Below are positions 14,586 through 58,051 of a stretch of 64,000 nt of DNA, in pieces. The DNA lies in NCBI GenBank assembly GCA_951406725.2, contig OX597817.1, positions 123,938,001-124,002,000 on the forward strand, given 5' to 3'. The number at the start of each line of letters is the position of its first letter. Position 1 is the first letter of the stretch. The translations under genes and the position numbers were made by a program. Source of the stretch: Octopus vulgaris. Lineage: Eukaryota. The notes beneath the pieces are model-generated. The model did not search any database, was not told where the DNA came from, and was given only the letters and a program-made list of their open reading frames with translations.

Positions 14586-15253
14586 ATCATTTGTTTTTGT
14601 CTTTCTTTAAGTCAATCCTGATAGAGAAGATACATTGGAAAAGTCCTGTTATCTTAAGATATTGAACAGAAGTGTAGGCATTGCTGTGTGTTTATGATGT
14701 GTGCTTCACAACAATGTGAAGCATGGCACCCTCAGCCAGTAAATGTCTTCTACTGATGTGAGTGAAATTTATTAGGTGAAAATTGTATGGAAGCTCATCA
14801 GGCATACACAAACATACATATTTTTGTCATTCCACCACCCACAATTAGACTTAATGTTAAATACATCATCATCAAAATCGTCATTGTTGTGTAGTGATGC
14901 CATCTTGGAAATCTCCAGCATGCATGCGCCAAGTTGGATTCTTCTGGGAGGCCTGCTGGAAGTTCCCACATGTGCATGTGCAGAAAACCAGCAGCAGCAA
15001 AATCCCCTTGTATCATTCTCTCAAACGTCATCAGTTGAACAGGACAGTCGTGTTTTATCAGCTCTCTCAAGCTGCTACTTCGTGGCATATCTCTGCTATG
15101 CTTGAACGGACAGGATTTGGCTCACTCCACTTGACTATTGCGATAAGCTCCTAGGCTACTAATTTGCCAGAAAGAAGAATGTATATATTACAAATCAAGA
15201 AATAAATATTTATACTCAAAAGCCATTCGATTCACTTCAACATTTTAGTTTAA

Positions 15254-15304
15254 TTTGTCAAAATATTTTCGTTGCTTTAAAATCGCGACCTGTTCACTGA
15301 TAAA
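15254..15304 (-). ncRNA. Minimal type I hammerhead-like fold, G3-C8 variant (inverted copy)
   Basis: tttatca GTGAACA g gtcgc gattttaaa gcaac GAAA atat TT tgacaaa; one mismatch each in stems I and II. Confidence 0.5.
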
Positions 15305-15326
15305 AATCCGAGATGCAGCACGGATT

Positions 15327-15377
15327 TTTGTCAGTGAACAGGTCGCGGTCTTAAAACGACGAAAATATTTTGACAAA
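15327..15377 (+). ncRNA. Minimal type I hammerhead-like fold, G3-C8 variant
   Basis: tttgtca GTGAACA g gtcg cggtcttaaaa cgac GAAA atat TT tgacaaa: 7-bp stem I, 4-bp stem II, palindromic stem III (AATATT). Confidence 0.62.
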
Positions 15378-15632
15378 TTAAACTTAAATGTTGAAGTGAA
15401 TCGAACAGCTTTTGTGTGTTTCTTAAATGGCTTACAAACACCTTCCACGCTGCAATTGTTTTCGTTTCAGCGCACAATCTCAGATCAAATCACTTGCTAT
15501 GCAAGTACATCTCCGTAATATTCATACTGTTGAAGTTAATTGGAAGTCTTGACTCTTTCCTTCGATTAATATTTAATGTAAAGGATGCGAGCTGCACCCT
15601 TCCAGTGCGGGGACCTCTCATCCTGTTACAAT

Positions 15633-15669
15633 TGGTGACCCTGACGTGATTCGAACATGCAGCCTTCTG
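15633..15669 (-). other. 3' half of tRNA-Trp including CCA (extended primer-binding site on + strand)
   Basis: Minus strand CAGAAGGCTGCATGTTCGAATCACGTCAGGGTCA-CCA; two G>A changes versus the conserved metazoan tRNA-Trp 3' half as I recall it. Confidence 0.85.
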
Positions 15670-15732
15670 GAAGAAACCAACTCTGCACATGCGTGCTGGA
15701 GATTTCCAAGATGGCATCACTACAGTTGCCTT

Positions 15733-15940
15733 TGTCATCATGATTTGTCTGCTTTCCATGCTAGCATGGCTCAAACACATTGTCTTGATTCAAGTCATTT
15801 CTTATTTGGAGTTATTTCCCTCTTAGATGGCTCTTAGTCATATGTTTTAATGTTTGGAATGGTTTCTATGGCTAAATGCCCTTCCTAATACCAACCACTT
15901 TGTAGAGTCTACTGAGAGCATTTTATCATGGCGCCAACAC
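15733..15940 (-). mobile_element. Family F SINE-like fragment ((ATG)n tail)
   Basis: ctgctttccatgctagcatgg...atgcccttcctaataccaaccact matches 26152-26340 and 63757-64000. Confidence 0.6.
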
Positions 15941-42381: not shown

Positions 42382-42426
<45 letters not shown>

Positions 42427-42599
42427 TACACTATACACAAACATATATACATAAATATATATGTGTGTTCATTTTTTGATGATCCATCTTCGTTGAGCAT
42501 CAAAATGCACTTGGAGCACTTACTGCAGGGCTCTATTCAACCACAATGATTAAATGCACATATGAACTATAATATAAACTTGTGTTTGTCCTTACTTCT

Positions 42600-43210
42600 C
42601 ATAGTCTTTTATTCTTTTATTCCTTATACATTTCGGCATTAGGTTATGGCCATGCTGGGGCACCACAAGTATTATTACCTTTGCAATGCCTATTATTATG
42701 TGAATAACTTTTGGCGAAGGAAGAAGTTCAATATTGTAGCCCTCTTTTTGAGTTTCTTGCCATGATGTAGGCTCATCTTGGGCCTTGAACAGCAAGAGAT
42801 CAAGCTGTTTCTTGAAAGCATCCACCCTAACTCCTTACATATCTCTCAGATGTTTTAGCAGGTTATTAAACAGCCACATGTCCTTGAGTCTTAAGCTATT
42901 GCAGTACATGTTACTCACACTAAATTGGATGGCTGGGACCATTGGAACTGTGCAATGACGTATAATTTGGGAGCTGGTATAGCTATTGATGCCAAAGTTT
43001 AGTGCCTACCCCTCCAGGATATCACTGCATATCCCTCTCATCTTCACTCTAGGGAGTAGAGTCATAACTCTTTCCATTTCTCCAGTAGTTCAGCTGTTCT
43101 ATTGAAGCTGGTGTAGTACCACTGAACTACTTCGAGTTCCACTATTAATTTGACACTGTGAGGTGACCACGATTGAGAGCAGCAGTCCAGACAGCTGAGG
43201 ACAGATGGGT
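42600..43210 (-). mobile_element. CR1-like LINE 3' fragment (second copy ~50670-51280)
   Basis: Decayed peptides LYSLE*R*EGY, WLFNNLLKHLRD, DAFKKQLDLLLFKAQDEP; tail ggtgccccagcatggcc...aataaaagaataaaag. Confidence 0.75.
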
Positions 43211-43227
43211 ATGATTATATATATATA

Positions 43228-43616
43228 CTAGCAGTATCACCCGGTCCTGCTTGGGTTTGTTTCGACCCTTTAGAATTGAAAATTTTGAAAAGTAAAAATT
43301 TTGCATTATGCAACTTGTTATTCTCTTCAAGTGAACATTTTTCCAGTTGAAATACACCGAAAAATGGTGACACAGCACTCAAAAATCGTAAAAAATAAGG
43401 ATTTTCATTGGAAAAAAGCACCTTTTTGATGTAAATAATTTTTGGTGTTAACATGGTCCGATTTGAATTTTATCTCCTTCAGAATGAAAAGCAAGCCTTC
43501 TTCTATCATACGCTCAATTTTGGTCAACTTGCGCTGCAGGGTCTCGAAGGAGATAGTGTTAGTTGAAGGCTACCAAACCTGCCACACACAGACAACCTCA
43601 GCTTTATATATAGAGA
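43228..43616 (-). mobile_element. Non-autonomous Helitron (second copy 51296-51684)
   Basis: 5' TCTCTATATATAAAG; 3' CCCAAGCAGGACCGGG hairpin remnant + CTAG; 3' end homologous to that of 4865-5257. Confidence 0.82.
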
Positions 43617-43665
43617 TTTGCTACACACTACTTTCCATCCTTAATAATGAAACTTGGTAGATCCA

Positions 43666-44345
43666 AAAGTTAAACACACAGACACACACACAGATACACA
43701 CACAGACACACAAGTTGAGTTTTATATATATATAGATTTCTCAACGGGGATTTCAGAGGAGAGTTTCAGGGAGTCGCTGGTGATGTATCGTGATGATAAA
43801 AAATCAGGCCTGCTAAAATTTGGTTAAAGTGATTCAAACTGCAGACTCAATGCAAAATGGTCACATTGAATTCAAAGCGTTAAAAATGTTATGAAAACAA
43901 TTGATATGTGTTCACAAAGTCCAAACGATTAATACGAAAAAACCCTCCAGGCTACATCCCGAAAATTGATTTCTTTGCCGAATTTCTACAATGTTTACGG
44001 CGATTCGTTTTTATATCTTGATTTTTTTATTTTTCATGCAATTTATGCATGCTTGCACACGTGGTGAACACAGTTCACATCAAACAGCTGACTGAGTAAA
44101 GTTCACTATTCAATGCATGGGATAAGGCCTAAACAAACACATTAGCGATTTTTACACTTGCGAGATGAATTTCGGAACAGAAATAATGCAGTTCAATTTT
44201 CATTCACCTAAACTTTAAGTGACCCATTTTTAGTGGTTCTACGATTTGTTGACTAGGAGGAGATGTGCCAGGAAGTTAAACACACAGACACACACACAGA
44301 TACACACACAGACACACAAGTTGAGTTTTATATATATATATATAT
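43666..44345 (-). mobile_element. Helitron-like fragment with duplicated ~65-bp 5' end
   Basis: aagttaaacacacagacac...aagttgagttttatatatatata at 43667 and 44273; the first copy reads TCTATATATATATAAAA on the minus strand; no 3' hairpin-CTAG identified. Confidence 0.5.
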
Positions 44346-44833
44346 ATTCAATCACAAACACATACAAACATACATATATATACACATACATATTTATACA
44401 CAGGTATATATATTTACATGTATTTGTGTGTGTGAATACCTTTACACATTTGCATTAAAAGATTTACTACACAAGGTTTTGACATGACTATAGTTCGGTA
44501 CCCTGCCAACTTTGTTTCCTCATAACTTTTTGAAGAAGCATTATGTTTTAATGAAATTTTGCTGAAATACTCAACTAGAAAGCTAAATGAAAAAAGGGAG
44601 ATGAAGACAGATAAAGAGAGTGGGGTGAGAAAAGGAGGGAGGGAGAGGAAGAGAGAGTTAGAGGAAGAGAGAGAGAGAGAGAAAGGGAGGGTGAGAGAAA
44701 TTGGAGAAGAATATTGTGTGAAAAGAAAGAATCAATGAATGGGAAAGGAAATTGAAGAGAGAAGCTTCATTGTTATGTTATTCATATGATATTGATTTCA
44801 GAAGGAGATTGACAGAGAGAGAGAGTAGTAGAT

Positions 44834-44898
<65 letters not shown>

Positions 44899-47097
44899 TA
44901 GGAAAGAGAGAGCATGAGAAAATTAGGACAGAAGACTCATTTATGATAATGAATGTCTTTGAATTACATAATTGCTACATTGAATCTAATTTATATATGT
45001 TCTGTAAGATTCTATAGAAAAAGTAAATAATGAAACAATATCATTATATTTTTTCATTAGTCTTATTGTTATTGCATACTTTCTCTGCACTAAACGCCAC
45101 CCTGGGTGCCTTGGGTATGTACAGTATTTTATTCTTTTTTTTTTTTAAAGCTTTTCTATTGAATCAAAAATGCTCTATGTAATAGGTGTGCAGTGCCTAG
45201 TAGTGTTATTTTTTGGAATGTTGTGCTCATTCATAATTCCTGAGGTTTTGGTCTTATATGTGTCTGCTTATTTTTTTAGTCATTTCCAAAGCACCTATTA
45301 TTATAATAGTGACTATTTCTGTTTTCGGTTTTCACATTCTGGTTATCTTTGTTTCCAAATCTTTACACTTGGCTGATTTCTTTATTTCTTTGAAAAATTA
45401 ATTAACATTTGTTTGGACCTGCCATGCTCAGGCCCTTTTTTCTCTTTCTACCCCTTTTGAATATGGCTTTGTAAAAAAATAATTTATCTTCACAGAATAA
45501 ACCTTTAAAGCATCCTTTCTGTTCATCTTGAAAAAGTTTTTCTATTATTTACACATTATAACAATATCCCTCTACTACAATTCAATACCATCCAATTTTT
45601 AATTATGCACTCATAACATCTCACATGACAGGTGAAGTTCTGAGTACAAGTTTGATATGGATGACTACTAACCTCAGTACTCTACTTTAAGTGACTCTGT
45701 GATGTATCACCTCTTAATTTTAGTTATTGATCCAACTTTTCATTTGCAACTTTAACCATATTCAGATAGGTACTCTTTATGCTCCATGTAATCTCTGTAT
45801 CTCCACTTTGTCTTCAGTACCCATATGAAAATGTGCATGGTACCCTCTAGAGGGGAGTATTATACACTTTCAGAAGCACTAAACTATAGCATCAATGTAT
45901 TCTTCCTGTTTCACATGGTGAAGATATGTCTAGCAGAAATGAAATTTTGGCTGCTATTTCTAGTCGGTTGACTGTGAAGGGCCCTTTGTTCAGAGTTTCA
46001 TTAGTTATTTGGTTTGATGTGTGTGTGTATGCATGTGTGTGTACATATGTGTATGTGTGCACGTGTATGTATGTGCTTGTGTGTCCAAACTACACATATT
46101 GATGCAGACAGAGACACTTTGATGTGAGTTAAGGCTTTTATGTACATGCAAACTGTATGAGTTCCTGTGAAGTTAGATACATGATAGAATATGTAACCTT
46201 GGATTATTCCTTTTTTTTTTCTCTTTTGAGACCTTCTCAAGGGATGTAATGTTTACACTCGAGTATTAACGCAAAGGAATGAGCAACAAAACTGATATTT
46301 TATTCCGTATCCCTAGAGAACTTACCTCCTTACCAAATAAGCTTTTATCAGAAGTGTATATTGATTATATAGCTATTATTTTCACATTAGTTGGATTACG
46401 TCTGCATTCAGACTTGTTTATCCCATGAGTAAATTCTCTTAGATAATGTTTTCTCACTTTCAGAAGTTGTGTTTATGCAATTACTTTGACTTATATTTTC
46501 TGTTGTTCATTAATTTTTATAGCAAATTATTAGTTTAATATTAAGACTGTTTGCTAAAAATATTTGCTTTGATTTTTTTCTTCTTCTTTTTTTTTTACCA
46601 GTTTTTATCCTTCATTTCATATCAGGCTTTTGAAAAGGGTTTTGATACAGAATGAATAAGAGAAGACGCCATATATCTTTTTTTTTTTAATGTTTTTCTT
46701 ATTTATTTCGACTTCATTGCATTAGTTTTACTTTAGTTATTAAAGATTTTGTGTTGGCAGAATGAGTAGAATATATAAATATGAAATGTCATCATCATCA
46801 TCATTATCATCATCAGCAGCAGCATCCTCATCATAGTTGCTGTCATCATGAAAGGTTATCATTATTTACATTACCGCTTCTTCCATTATGCCACAGGTGT
46901 GATATGGCCATGTATCAGACTAAACCTGAATGCAACCAAGTTATTCTAAATATAACTTGTACTTAATATAAAAGACGTTATTTCATAAATGAAATACATC
47001 TCAATATAGTGCATAACAAAATACAGATATAAAATTTAAAACGTAGAATAGGATTTGTACTTAATTTGTAAATTTAACACTATTTTCTTCCACATAC

Positions 47098-47396
47098 CAG
47101 TGTGTGTGTATGTGAGTGTGAAAAATTTTTTTGATATTATATATCCACCATTACACATGTTTCATTTGTTAATAGGAGCTACAAAATTAATATTTGGATG
47201 AAGCTTTTGCTTCATTAATAAAAGCTTCATCAAAATGTAAATTTTATTTTACTTGATTCTTTGTCTGAAAAATTTCTAATAAGAAATATTTTACATATTT
47301 TTTCTATATGTACAATTTTGTAACTCCTATTAACAAATGAAAAATGTGTAATGGTGAATAAATAATGATACCCATTTTTTTTCTGCCACTCACCTG
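47098..47396. mobile_element. MITE-like fold-back element (second copy ~55162-55460)
   Basis: caccattacacat.tttcatttgttaataggag.tacaaaatt (47146-47188) inverted at 47314-47356; internal hairpin gatgaagctttt...aaaagcttcatc. Confidence 0.7.
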
Positions 47397-47849
47397 TTTT
47401 GATATGTAATTACTGTGCAAAAATATTTTCCAGTATTTTTCAACTCTTATGCATATCTCACACAATTATAACATCCACATAGAACCTTGTAGTACTGGAC
47501 TAAATAGATGTGCCTGGAGATAACACAGCTTGGATTATAACCATATTCACATGCTCTTTGTATGTATATATATATGTGTGTGTGTATATATATATACATA
47601 TTTATATACACACACACACATATACATATATACATACATACAAACACACATGCACACATATATGTGTGTGTATATATATATATATACACAACAAAGGTGA
47701 GATTCACATTTGAAAAAGAAATGATGCAAGTAACCAACTGTGGAGTCCCCCAGTTGAAGGACATGAATTAAGTGAGCAAGGGGCAACCAAAAAAGACTCA
47801 AGAATGGAATTAAAAGGAATTAAAAGTAAATGCAAGCATAATTTTCAAA

Positions 47850-48112
47850 ACAAAAGACCTCATCTACTGCATCACATGCCTACAGTGCAATGAAAACTAC
47901 ATTAGGAAGACAGGAAGGAAACTGACCAGCCGTGTAAATGTGCATAAACAACAAATTAGGGATTCATCTCTTAGGAATGTTCTATGCAGTGAACATCTAT
48001 ATACCAGTGCAAATGGAAAATTAAAAATATTCCCATTTTACAAAATAAACGATGAAAATGTACAACTACAAAAGAAGAAGAATTTATAAGAATTCTAAAT
48101 CTGAAATTAAAC
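47850..48112 (+). pseudogene. Penelope-like GIY-YIG endonuclease remnant (second copy ~55913-56175)
   Basis: TKDLIYCITCLQCNENYIR(K/E)TGRKLTSRVNVHKQQIRD...CSEHL...KIFPFY, frameshift, KEEEFIRILNLKLN. Confidence 0.85.
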
Positions 48113-48592
48113 CCAAAATAGCCAACATGCCATATAATAAACAATGGTAAAAGAATATTTATGACTAAAACCATAAGTCCAAAAATAAACCAGAAATAAT
48201 ACGACCACTAGCACAAGAGTAACGACTTCCTCTTTAAGAGCGTGTGTGTTTGAAAAGGTTTGTTGAAAGCACTCACACACTAGAAAAAAAACTTCTTCCC
48301 AGAAAAGGTTAGTAACATCCTCATAAAAGATTTCATAACATTATTTAAGAAAATAATCTTTTTAAGAAATCGTCTCTGCACTTCAAAAACTGTATTAAGT
48401 AATCCTCATGAACTTTCATATATATATATATGCCCTCTATAAATAAATTAAATATGTTCAATAAGAAAGAATTATTTTCGAAATTTTTTCTCTTATGAGG
48501 TTTTTTCACGCTATCTACCTGATAATTTCTTGTTAAGATTCCTTATTAAGAAGTTATCCTTAATTGTTAAATTTAATATATATATATATATA

Positions 48593-48790
48593 GCTAATCC
48601 AAACAAGAAAACACAAAAAAAAACACTACAATGCGAGGACGTGGAACAAATACAGTATTATTGGACGCTCAGGAAAGAAGGAAAGAAGGAGGGTTTAACG
48701 TTTCGAGCGGAGCTCTTTGCCGGAAACATAGGAGAAGGAAAGATCCAGAGAAGGGAAGAAGACAGAGGAAAAAAATCGCCAACGGTACAC
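48593..48790 (-). mobile_element. Short TA-inserted element with degenerate hammerhead fold (second copy ~56583-56790)
   Basis: Bounded by (TA)n; 48693-48727 minus reads gttt CCGGCAA a gagc tcc gctc GAAA cg TT aaac. Confidence 0.6.
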
Positions 48791-48809
48791 ATATATATAT
48801 ATGTATATA

Positions 48810-48960
<151 letters not shown>

Positions 48961-49445
48961 TATACCTAATCATATCAAAGGGAAATGGAAATTAATTAAA
49001 ATTTTTATTTCCAGTGGCCTAACGTGTAAAAATTTAGTCTATGTATTAAGACTATGTATTAGACATAAAATACAGTGTACATTTAAACACATAAGGAATT
49101 CACTATATATACAGTAGTACCTTGGCTTTCAAACACCTCTGATCACGAATAAATTGTGCTTTATATATATATATGTTTGTGTGTTCATGATTGTGTGTTT
49201 GTATGTGTGCGTGTATTTGTATGCGTGTGTGTATTTGTGTGTGTACCTCTGTCTTCTTGTGTGTGCATGTTTGAGTGTGTCTTTGTGTATGGGTTTGTCT
49301 ATGTACATGCATCTGTTATGTATGTATATGTGTCTCCATATGCGTTCTTGTGTGTACGTGTGTGTGCTGATCTGTATGTATTACCTATGTACCTATCTAT
49401 CTGATTATCTATGTTAACTCAGATATCCATTTACCTACATATATA

Positions 49446-50073
49446 CATGGTGCATAAGATAATTGAGGACAGATATATGTTTATAAAAAAAACCCAGATA
49501 TATAACAGGTAATAACTTTGCTTATCAAAAAATGCTATGAGGATAAAAATAAACCTTCTTTTCTATAATCTTATTCAATAAAGCCACCTACAGCATCAAC
49601 AATTGCTTCTATATGAAATCTACATCATCTACATGCTTGAATCAATTTGTTCTTGTTCATTTTAGACATTTCTCTGACTATGGTAGCTTTCAAGGAAACT
49701 TTGGTGTTATGGGCATGTTCATTGATCTCTTTCTCAACAATGCTCCTCCTGTAATAGTCCAATAGATTGAGATCTGGAGAATTAAGGAGAATGTTAAGGG
49801 TTATGTGATCATAAAACTTTTCAGCCATCCATTCCTGTGTCACTAGAGCCATGTGTGATAGTGCAGAGTCTTATTGAAACACATATGGCCTTCCATTGCA
49901 TACAATATCTATCCAGAGTTTAACAATTATTTCCAGGACCTCAATGTAGGCGGGAGAGTTAAAACTCTAAGGCCTTGTGGAAAGAAGTAAGGAGGCATCA
50001 CATGTCCTTCATTGCTGACAACCTCTAAAACCATCACTGTTGCAAGAAATTTTGTATACTTAACACCTGGAAC
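49446..50073 (-). mobile_element. Tc1/mariner maT (DD37D-like) transposon remnant
   Basis: VMVLEVVSNEGHVMPPYFF, GRPYVFQ*DSA, LNSPDLNLLDYY motifs; terminus at TA|catggtgcataagataa. Confidence 0.8.

Positions 50074-50173: not shown

Positions 50174-58051
<7,878 letters not shown>

What the first reader, a model, noticed from the sequence alone, without database searches (positions are those of the whole stretch)
14890..15724. Single LTR + tRNA primer copy + inverted LTR end, integrated as one TIR-bounded unit
Seen: the element starts TGTAGTG and ends CACTACA, with ~55-63 bp inverted termini and GTTG duplicated on both flanks. Removing the nested insertion leaves a ~430-bp segment 14890-15630 that looks like an LTR (TGT...TACA, AATAAA at 15201). 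It is followed after 2 nt by a tRNA-Trp PBS and then at once by an inverted copy of the LTR's own 5' end, with no internal region or second direct LTR. Known: CsRn1-type Ty3/Gypsy elements use tRNA-Trp and make 4-bp TSDs, and Ginger-type DNA transposons have TGT termini, short TSDs and Gypsy-like integrases. Inference: this is either an aberrant plus-strand strong-stop product that folded back and was integrated, or a member of a non-autonomous family that turned an LTR into a MITE-like integrase substrate.
Basis: partly seen in the sequence, partly recalled or inferred. Interest (0 to 1): 0.8.

Follow-up and report, generated by a model that had tools for sequence, protein, structure and literature searches.

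The report
Primer-overshoot LTR with two identical ends
A single retrotransposon terminal repeat is followed by 37 letters copied from a tryptophan tRNA and then by an upside-down copy of its own start, all between a duplicated 4-letter target; it is most likely a dead, one-off copying accident, which would show one way a retrotransposon end can take on the shape of a DNA transposon.

Summary
The unit 14890-15724 has TGT...ACA ends, GTTG on both sides and inverted arms. The tRNA-Trp copy, however, is 37 nt (CCA included, 15633-15669), not an 18-nt PBS. Its last 8 nt overlap the inverted arm and can pair with LTR positions 56-63, so the true arm is 55 nt. In contigs of a related run the LTR pieces lie 21-526 times deeper than the flank, a copy without the nested 312-nt insert exists, and the PBS/arm junction bin reaches only 14-20% of LTR depth, most of it explained by LTR-end letters and, probably, tRNA genes. 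The LTR family is therefore ordinary and this form is rare. Best reading (0.68): plus-strand synthesis ran past the primer stop, the unpairable tail switched onto a U3 end, and the product, with two U3 ends, was integrated once. Over-long tRNA-Trp copies behind LTR-like ends also turned up in 5 of 122 metagenome matches, none with an inverted end. No internal region or parent element was seen, and a small TIR-bounded subfamily is not excluded.

The parts
14886..14889 (+). left copy of the 4-bp target duplication GTTG
   Evidence: chance 0.0038
14890..15216 (+). LTR-like repeat, first piece (U3 end TGTAG, AATAAA at 15201)
   Evidence: X1 contig depth 1,232-25,653 against 51-65 in the flank; U3/R/U5 roles inferred from position
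14945..14952 (+). [quoted passage not shown]
   Evidence: rank 1 of 417 sites by a 3'-anchored score counting G-T as half; third by duplex energy with a 12-nt tail; X1 contigs mostly read C at 14945
15217..15528 (.). later nested insertion of a very high-copy repeat, with a 102-nt-arm palindrome (15214-15417) and a 12-nt duplication (15205-15216 / 15517-15528); Penelope-like by layout only
   Evidence: depth up to 3.3 million and a joint skipping 312 nt in X1; layout as in PMC8557442 passages
15529..15630 (+). LTR-like repeat, second piece, ending GTTACA
   Evidence: X1 depth 21,232-30,441 at 15555-15624
15631..15632 (+). 2-nt spacer AT between LTR end and PBS
15633..15650 (+). 18-nt tRNA-Trp primer-binding site (starts TGG, the complement of the added CCA)
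   Evidence: control L122 has exactly this 18-nt length
15651..15669 (+). 19 further letters complementary to tRNA-Trp, standard positions 58 to 40 (primer read-through)
15670..15724 (-). inverted copy of the first 55 nt of the LTR (second U3 end)
   Evidence: keeps AG at arm positions 41-42, the letters that X1 contigs show at 14930-14931
15725..15728 (+). right copy of the 4-bp target duplication GTTG

Best explanation
The unit is one LTR-like repeat, a 37-nt copy of mature tRNA-Trp and an inverted copy of the repeat's first 55 bases between a 4-bp duplication, and it is most likely a dead-end reverse-transcription product of a tRNA-Trp-primed Ty3/Gypsy element that was integrated once. Inferred steps: (1) plus-strand synthesis copied U3-R-U5 and the 2-nt spacer, then ran past the usual stop at tRNA position 58 to about position 40; (2) the PBS part could still pair with the minus-strand end and so build a normal left U3 end, but the 19-nt overshoot could not be extended there; (3) that tail paired through about 8-11 bases with U3 positions 56-67 of a displaced plus strand and was extended to its 5' end, making a second U3 end; (4) integrase joined both ends with a 4-bp stagger, and host repair trimmed the flaps and filled the gap; (5) the copy then decayed and received the 312-nt insertion. 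It has no PPT, second direct LTR or ORF, so it would not replicate again by the LTR route.
For: Shown: 37-nt tRNA-Trp copy with the non-encoded CCA (TGG precedes 0 of 108 gene-like loci), so the template was a mature tRNA; an ordinary PBS stops at 18 nt (L122; PMC8599865 passages, which also state that read-through leaves a non-complementary tail that blocks plus-strand completion). The tRNA copy overlaps the inverted arm by 8 nt, and the site ranks 1 of 417 in a 3'-anchored pairing scan. Both ends are exact LTR termini with a 4-bp duplication, the length reported for tRNA-Trp-primed CsRn1-like elements (PMC2582038). The LTR is a multi-copy repeat, the junction bin is 14-20% of LTR depth, and ends sum to about one per copy. 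Displaced dead-end plus strands accumulate in Ty3/Ty1 particles (PMC5371799 passages). The read-through step recurs elsewhere: 5 of 122 metagenome matches carry TGG plus 29-50 nt of tRNA-Trp, and two are followed by gag or protease-like coding sequence (L038 DUF7041 E 1e-11; L045 weak, E 0.003).
Against: No full-length parent, internal region or second direct LTR was seen, so 'LTR of a Gypsy element' rests on termini, AATAAA, spacer plus PBS, TSD and copy number. The switch site is only third by duplex energy with a 12-nt tail, second with a 15-nt tail, and not among the top four with the 19-nt tail; the rank-1 result depends on my counting G-T as half a pair and on an 8-nt length chosen after seeing the overlap. 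Contig depth is not a copy number (tool warning), the split of the junction bin is arithmetic on one 35-nt bin, and the two raw-read runs laid only 3 and 44 reads. No empty site was displayed (15 of 78 joints shown). None of the 5 TGG loci, nor L078, shows an inverted LTR end in the 229-600 nt held upstream, so the full structure has no second example here.
Confidence: 0.68

Rival explanations
1. The same structure arose once by the overshoot-and-switch route and was then copied as a small non-autonomous, TIR-bounded family, for example excised and moved by a Ginger-type transposase that accepts TGTAG ends.
For: Ends fit the TGTNR pattern, the arm length lies within the 40-270 bp given for Ginger1 and the TSD is 4 bp (PMC2836005 passages). 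After subtracting LTR-end letters, about 11 flank-depth units remain in the junction bin of X1.
Against: A similar remainder (about 14 units) is present in X14, which has zero depth over 15030-15169 and so seems to lack this copy; tRNA-Trp genes probably account for it (inference). Junction depth is at most 14-20% of LTR depth and ends sum to about one per copy. GTTG is neither CCGG/CCGT nor within RTATAY. There is no second copy in the window and no hit for the end in metagenome or viral contigs.
Confidence: 0.12
2. Intramolecular fold-back: one free, over-long plus strand folded its tail onto its own U3, filled in to a panhandle, and this hairpin was inserted with help from host repair.
For: It gives the same top-strand sequence; the strand folds into a panhandle that pairs both ends through about position 70; displaced plus strands are abundant in Ty particles.
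Against: A panhandle has one double-stranded end, while a 4-bp duplication with two exact termini is the mark of two-ended integration (established knowledge; inference for this case). The sequence alone cannot separate this route from the best explanation.
Confidence: 0.1
3. Two independent events: an LTR with an over-long primer copy, and a second family member inserted nearby in the opposite orientation, later joined by a microhomology-mediated deletion, with GTTG matching by chance.
For: The family has many copies, and one X1 contig shows an inverted LTR start joined to internal LTR sequence elsewhere (joint 15724 to 15178). The arms differ at 5 of 55 positions, all beyond position 31. PMC2836005 proposes such opposite LTR pairs.
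Against: It needs a 0.4% coincidence for the duplication, plus a deletion ending exactly where the tRNA copy ends. The CAT triplet phase across the site is kept with a 4-bp duplication. Two of the five arm differences are CpG-type, and two adjacent ones are private to the left arm.
Confidence: 0.08

Closest known systems
Plus-strand strong-stop read-through of the primer tRNA (retroviruses; PMC8599865, passages read)
   Same: [quoted passage not shown]
   Different: There it is described as blocking completion and integration; here the product appears rescued by a switch onto U3 and was inserted with a clean duplication.
CsRn1-clade Ty3/Gypsy elements (PwRn1, AgCR; PMC2582038, passages and section 6 read)
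   Same: tRNA-Trp PBS directly after the LTR, 4-bp TSD without sequence preference, LTR length of the same order (146-381 bp in the entries I saw; 429 bp here), TGT start.
   Different: No gag, pol, PPT or second direct LTR; 37-nt tRNA copy; ends TGT...ACA where that paper reports TGT...AAA/ATA.
Dead-end plus-strand strong-stop DNA of Ty1/Ty3 (PMC5371799, passages read)
   Same: U3-R-U5 plus a copy of the primer's 3' end, displaced as a free strand.
   Different: 12 nt of tRNA there against 37 here; not described as integrated in the passages read.
Ginger1 and Ginger2 DNA transposons (PMC2836005, abstract and passages read)
   Same: TGTNR termini, TIR of 40-270 bp, 4-bp TSD.
   Different: No transposase; target is not CCGG/CCGT or RTATAY; the inside is an LTR plus primer copy; no evidence of a family with this junction.
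TRIMs, including Helenus (PMC10886601, abstract and passages read)
   Same: Short, non-coding, LTR-derived, with a PBS; animal Helenus makes 4-bp TSDs and carries tRNA-like sequence.
   Different: TRIMs have two direct LTRs and a PPT, and the Helenus tRNA-like part lies inside the LTR; here there is one LTR, no PPT, and the tRNA copy is the primer itself outside the LTR.
Abnormal provirus junctions with partial PBS (PMC2797772, passages read)
   Same: PBS-derived letters kept beyond a U5 end in an integrated copy.
   Different: 2-15 nt of PBS joined to host DNA, with an otherwise whole provirus; no inverted U3 end.

Membership tests
CsRn1-clade Ty3/Gypsy | PBS complementary to the 3' end of tRNA-Trp next to the LTR | tested here: met
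CsRn1-clade Ty3/Gypsy | 4-bp target site duplication | tested here: met
   GTTG on both sides
CsRn1-clade Ty3/Gypsy | Two LTRs in direct repeat around gag-pol, with a PPT | tested here: not met
   no second copy of the LTR pieces in the window; the only frames of 100 aa or more over the unit are two chance-like ones at 14776-15121 that cross its edge
CsRn1-clade Ty3/Gypsy | CHCC Gag motif and RT phylogeny of the parent element | not testable with these tools
   no genome held; internal region not displayed
LTR of an LTR retrotransposon | Dispersed multi-copy repeat with TG...CA ends, poly(A) signal and adjacent PBS | tested here: met
   multi-copy state read from contig depth only
LTR of an LTR retrotransposon | Occurs in direct repeat around an internal region in some copy | tested here: inconclusive
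   one search showed only 17 of 830 loose ends, none at 15630-15650
Ginger1/Ginger2 non-autonomous element | TGTNR termini, TIR 40-270 bp, 4-bp TSD | tested here: met
Ginger1/Ginger2 non-autonomous element | Target preference CCGG/CCGT (Ginger1) or RTATAY (Ginger2) | tested here: not met
   target is GTTG in a TTGTTGCC context
Ginger1/Ginger2 non-autonomous element | Several copies with the same two ends and different TSDs, or an autonomous partner with these ends | tested here: inconclusive
   depth argues against it being the main form; copies could not be listed
TRIM / Helenus | Two direct LTRs with PBS and PPT between them | tested here: not met
Penelope-like element (nested insert only) | Inverted 5'-truncated copy beside the pseudo-LTR | tested here: inconclusive
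   palindromic layout fits, but no RT or named family was linked

The most novel reading that the evidence does not exclude
Primer overshoot followed by a switch onto U3 is a repeatable route by which a Gypsy element makes a linear DNA with two U3 ends, that is terminal inverted repeats. This unit belongs to a small family of such LTR-derived, TIR-bounded elements that went on moving as DNA, a living model for how Ginger-type DNA transposons could get their TIRs from LTR retrotransposons.
Probability: 0.12. Interest if true: 0.8.

Novelty: new variant of a known kind. Interest (0 to 1): 0.42.

Why it matters
The paper defining Ginger transposons says that the chain of events from LTR retrotransposon to DNA transposon is unclear, and offers only two chance LTRs in opposite orientation (PMC2836005). 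This fossil suggests a one-step alternative: an error at the second strand transfer yields two integrase-ready U3 ends in inverted orientation. It also suggests that overshot cDNA, usually treated as a dead end, can still be integrated, and that such fossils record where reverse transcriptase stalls on the primer tRNA (end points beside positions 37 and 26 in L069 and L026). As a single decayed copy it has no shown function, and its weight depends on whether more copies or more such products are found.

Tried and rejected
Exact scans for the left end found 0 stretches in metagenome contigs and 0 in viral contigs; the long tRNA pattern found 0 in viral contigs. ARAGORN finds 0 tRNA genes in the window. 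Rfam over 14700-15900 gave 16 matches, all below gathering score and nearly all on the palindrome, with none for tRNA; I treat them as hairpin artefacts. Raw runs X21 and X22, added by species label, laid 3 and 44 of 12.9 million reads each and are uninformative. Of the 24 runs listed only 4 were laid; the shares of the others are not used as evidence. The nested repeat filled most rows (110 difference rows, 63 joints and 813 loose ends not shown), which hid the empty site and the internal region. Autointegration was considered and rejected, because the internal junction lies at U3 position 55-63 rather than at a terminus. An antisense tRNA-derived SINE was considered and rejected, because only the 3' half with CCA is present and it starts exactly 2 nt after the LTR end. 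Literature searches for this structure: six terms, 0 papers; 4 of 6 terms, 0 papers; listings only, nothing describing an LTR plus over-long primer copy plus inverted U3; from these listings only PMC2797772 was opened. The library lacks most subscription papers, older retrovirus work on tRNA copies at circle junctions is recalled only, and no supplements were opened, so absence from print is not established. Look-ups of earlier findings by sequence or place, and two by words, returned nothing.

Full report
Observation. It starts TGTAGTG at 14890 and ends CACTACA at 15724, with GTTG on both sides. The inverted arms are 63 nt and 87% complementary, and the first 31 nt are identical. From local composition GTTG would follow the right end by chance with p = 0.0038. 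The unit sits in a decayed CAT-type tract whose triplet phase is kept if the duplicated length is 4 or 1, and broken for 0, 2, 3, 5 or 6; this is weak, independent support. AATAAA lies at 15201, the LTR-like segment ends GTTACA at 15630, and AT and then TGGTGACC follow. The window is repeat-rich animal DNA with no other copy of either LTR piece; its common repeats look like those of octopus genomes, which is recall and comes from no call.

ARAGORN called tRNA-Trp(CCA) in 54 of the 60 loci I gave it. Of 122 matches, 108 are full-length gene-like; window 15636-15669 matches them with 2 mismatches in 26, 3 in 26, 4 in 55 and 5 in 1, and the next 11 letters match at only 1-3 positions. Against the closest genes the two differences are CpG-type. 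TGG, the complement of the added CCA, precedes the copy in the window and in 0 of the 108 genes, so the template was a mature tRNA. The copy covers standard positions 76 to 40, 19 nt beyond the usual stop. A retrovirus-like record with an ordinary tRNA-Trp PBS (L122) matches for 18 nt only. PMC8599865 (passages) states that plus-strand synthesis stops after 18 nt, one base before m1A58, and that read-through adds sequence that cannot pair with the minus strand.

The junction. The last 8 nt of the tRNA copy (15662-15669) are also the inner end of the inverted arm, so the arm proper is 55 nt (15670-15724) with 5 mismatches. Read as a primer, the tail pairs with the plus strand from 14945 with G-T pairs at the mismatches. 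This site ranks 1 of 417 in a 3'-anchored score that counts G-T as half. By nearest-neighbour energy it is third with a 12-nt tail, second with a 15-nt tail and outside the top four with a 19-nt tail. X1 contigs mostly read C at 14945 (5,461 of 6,339 depth), which would make the terminal pair a standard one. The microhomology is real but modest, and my scoring was chosen after seeing it.

Family or one-off. No genome is held. I laid 4 of the 24 listed runs on 14785-15834 at 80% likeness. The two raw runs laid 3 and 44 reads and say nothing. In X1 contigs the left flank has depth 51-65, and one contig spans the left junction (14785-14929, 4 differences). The LTR pieces lie at 21-526 times the flank depth, so they belong to a dispersed repeat. 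One contig skips exactly the 312-nt insert. The bin holding the LTR end, PBS and overshoot (15625-15659) has depth 4,181, which is 14-20% of the two bins before it. Six LTR letters at the previous depth would give 3,640 of that. The remainder, about 11 flank units, is close to the 14 units in X14, where tRNA-Trp genes are the likely source (inference). The two outer end bins sum to 0.66-0.95 of LTR depth, as expected for one U3 end per copy and not two. The tool warns that contig depth is no copy number, so this shows only that the inverted form is not the main form of the family. In X14 (another species label) the flanks are covered while 15030-15169 has zero depth, which suggests that this copy is absent there; the empty-site joint was not among the 15 of 78 joints shown. 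Loose ends at the PBS, which would have shown the internal region, were not among the 17 of 830 shown.

Read-through is recurrent. In 5 of the 122 metagenome matches TGG precedes the copy, behind a non-tRNA end that in some cases resembles an LTR end (AATAAA or ATTAAA 49-73 nt upstream in 3 of 5), and the copy runs 29, 37, 39, 49 or 50 nt. L069 ends just before G37 and L026 just before G26, and L045 has a mismatch opposite G37; that these positions carry RT-blocking methylations (m1G37, m2,2G26) is recall. L038, and L078 (which has TCG instead of TGG), continue into DUF7041 coding sequence (E 1e-11 and 8e-6), and L045 continues into a weak gag-protease match (E 0.003, below cut-off). My pattern required 25 tRNA letters, so it cannot give a rate against normal PBSs. 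None of these six shows an inverted end in the DNA held.

Mechanism. Shown: the anatomy, the mature-tRNA origin of the 37 nt, the overlap with the arm, the duplication, the multi-copy LTR and the later insert. Inferred: an over-long plus strand paired through its PBS with the minus-strand end, which built the normal left end. Its unpairable tail caught a displaced plus strand at U3 56-67 and copied it to the end; such strands accumulate in Ty particles (PMC5371799 passages). The molecule then had two U3 ends, which integrase joined with a 4-bp stagger. An intramolecular panhandle gives the same top strand but only one double-stranded end. Two separate insertions need a 0.4% coincidence. Without a PPT or second direct LTR the unit should not replicate again through RNA, and moving as DNA would need an excising enzyme, for which there is no evidence.

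Comparison. It works like a rescued dead-end strong-stop product of a tRNA-Trp-primed Gypsy element. Primer and TSD length fit the CsRn1 clade (PMC2582038, passages and section 6), but the Gag motif and RT could not be tested, so clade membership is open. It has the outer shape of a Ginger element but not the target preferences given in PMC2836005, and no transposase. It is not a TRIM or Helenus (PMC10886601 passages). Proviruses with 2-15 nt of PBS at a junction are known (PMC2797772 passages) but lack the inverted end. My searches found no description of this exact structure, within a library that lacks most subscription papers; no supplements were opened. Two earlier AI notes from other genomes describe the halves separately, a primer overshoot (e1-7804496) and an integrated copy with an inverted LTR (e1-7271599); I did not check them and do not count them as support.

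Verdict. Real and well-formed, most likely a single fossil of a reverse-transcription error, and a new variant of a known kind. Its interest lies in offering a concrete route from an LTR end to terminal inverted repeats, a step that PMC2836005 calls unclear. Interest 0.42; it would be about 0.8 if the junction proved to be shared by copies at different sites (probability about 0.12).

Noticed in passing
L026, L038, L045, L069, L117, L078 (metagenome loci): Over-long copies of mature tRNA-Trp (29-50 nt) behind non-tRNA, partly LTR-like ends in other organisms; end points fall beside tRNA positions 37 and 26, and L045 has a mismatch opposite G37.
   Followed up: partly
L038, minus strand, about 530-660 of the reversed locus: Three successive PBS/tRNA-Trp copies of different lengths in front of a DUF7041 (gag-like) frame.
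   Followed up: no
window 15217-15528: Nested very high-copy repeat with a 102-nt-arm palindrome and a 12-nt duplication; the layout fits a Penelope-like insertion with an inverted truncated copy, but the family was not identified.
   Followed up: partly
window 42385-48463 and 50454-56525 (also 48567-50073 and 56557-58051): A 6-kb near-tandem duplication at 99.4% identity; the window also holds 100 N whose place I did not look up, so an assembly artefact is possible.
   Followed up: no
X1 contig, joint 15724 to 15178: An inverted LTR start joined through 27 other letters to internal LTR sequence, probably a nested opposite-orientation LTR or another switch product at a different locus.
   Followed up: no
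window 14855-14889 and 15730-15834: The insertion site is a decayed CAT-type tract at the edge of another dispersed repeat (depth 1,200-7,700 in X1 and X14).
   Followed up: partly
runs X21 and X22: Runs with the same species label as X1 laid only 3 and 44 reads on a stretch holding a very high-copy repeat, so the label probably covers a different or distant organism.
   Followed up: no
L122:366-383: A retrovirus-like record with a gag-like frame and an ordinary 18-nt tRNA-Trp PBS; used only as a length control.
   Followed up: partly
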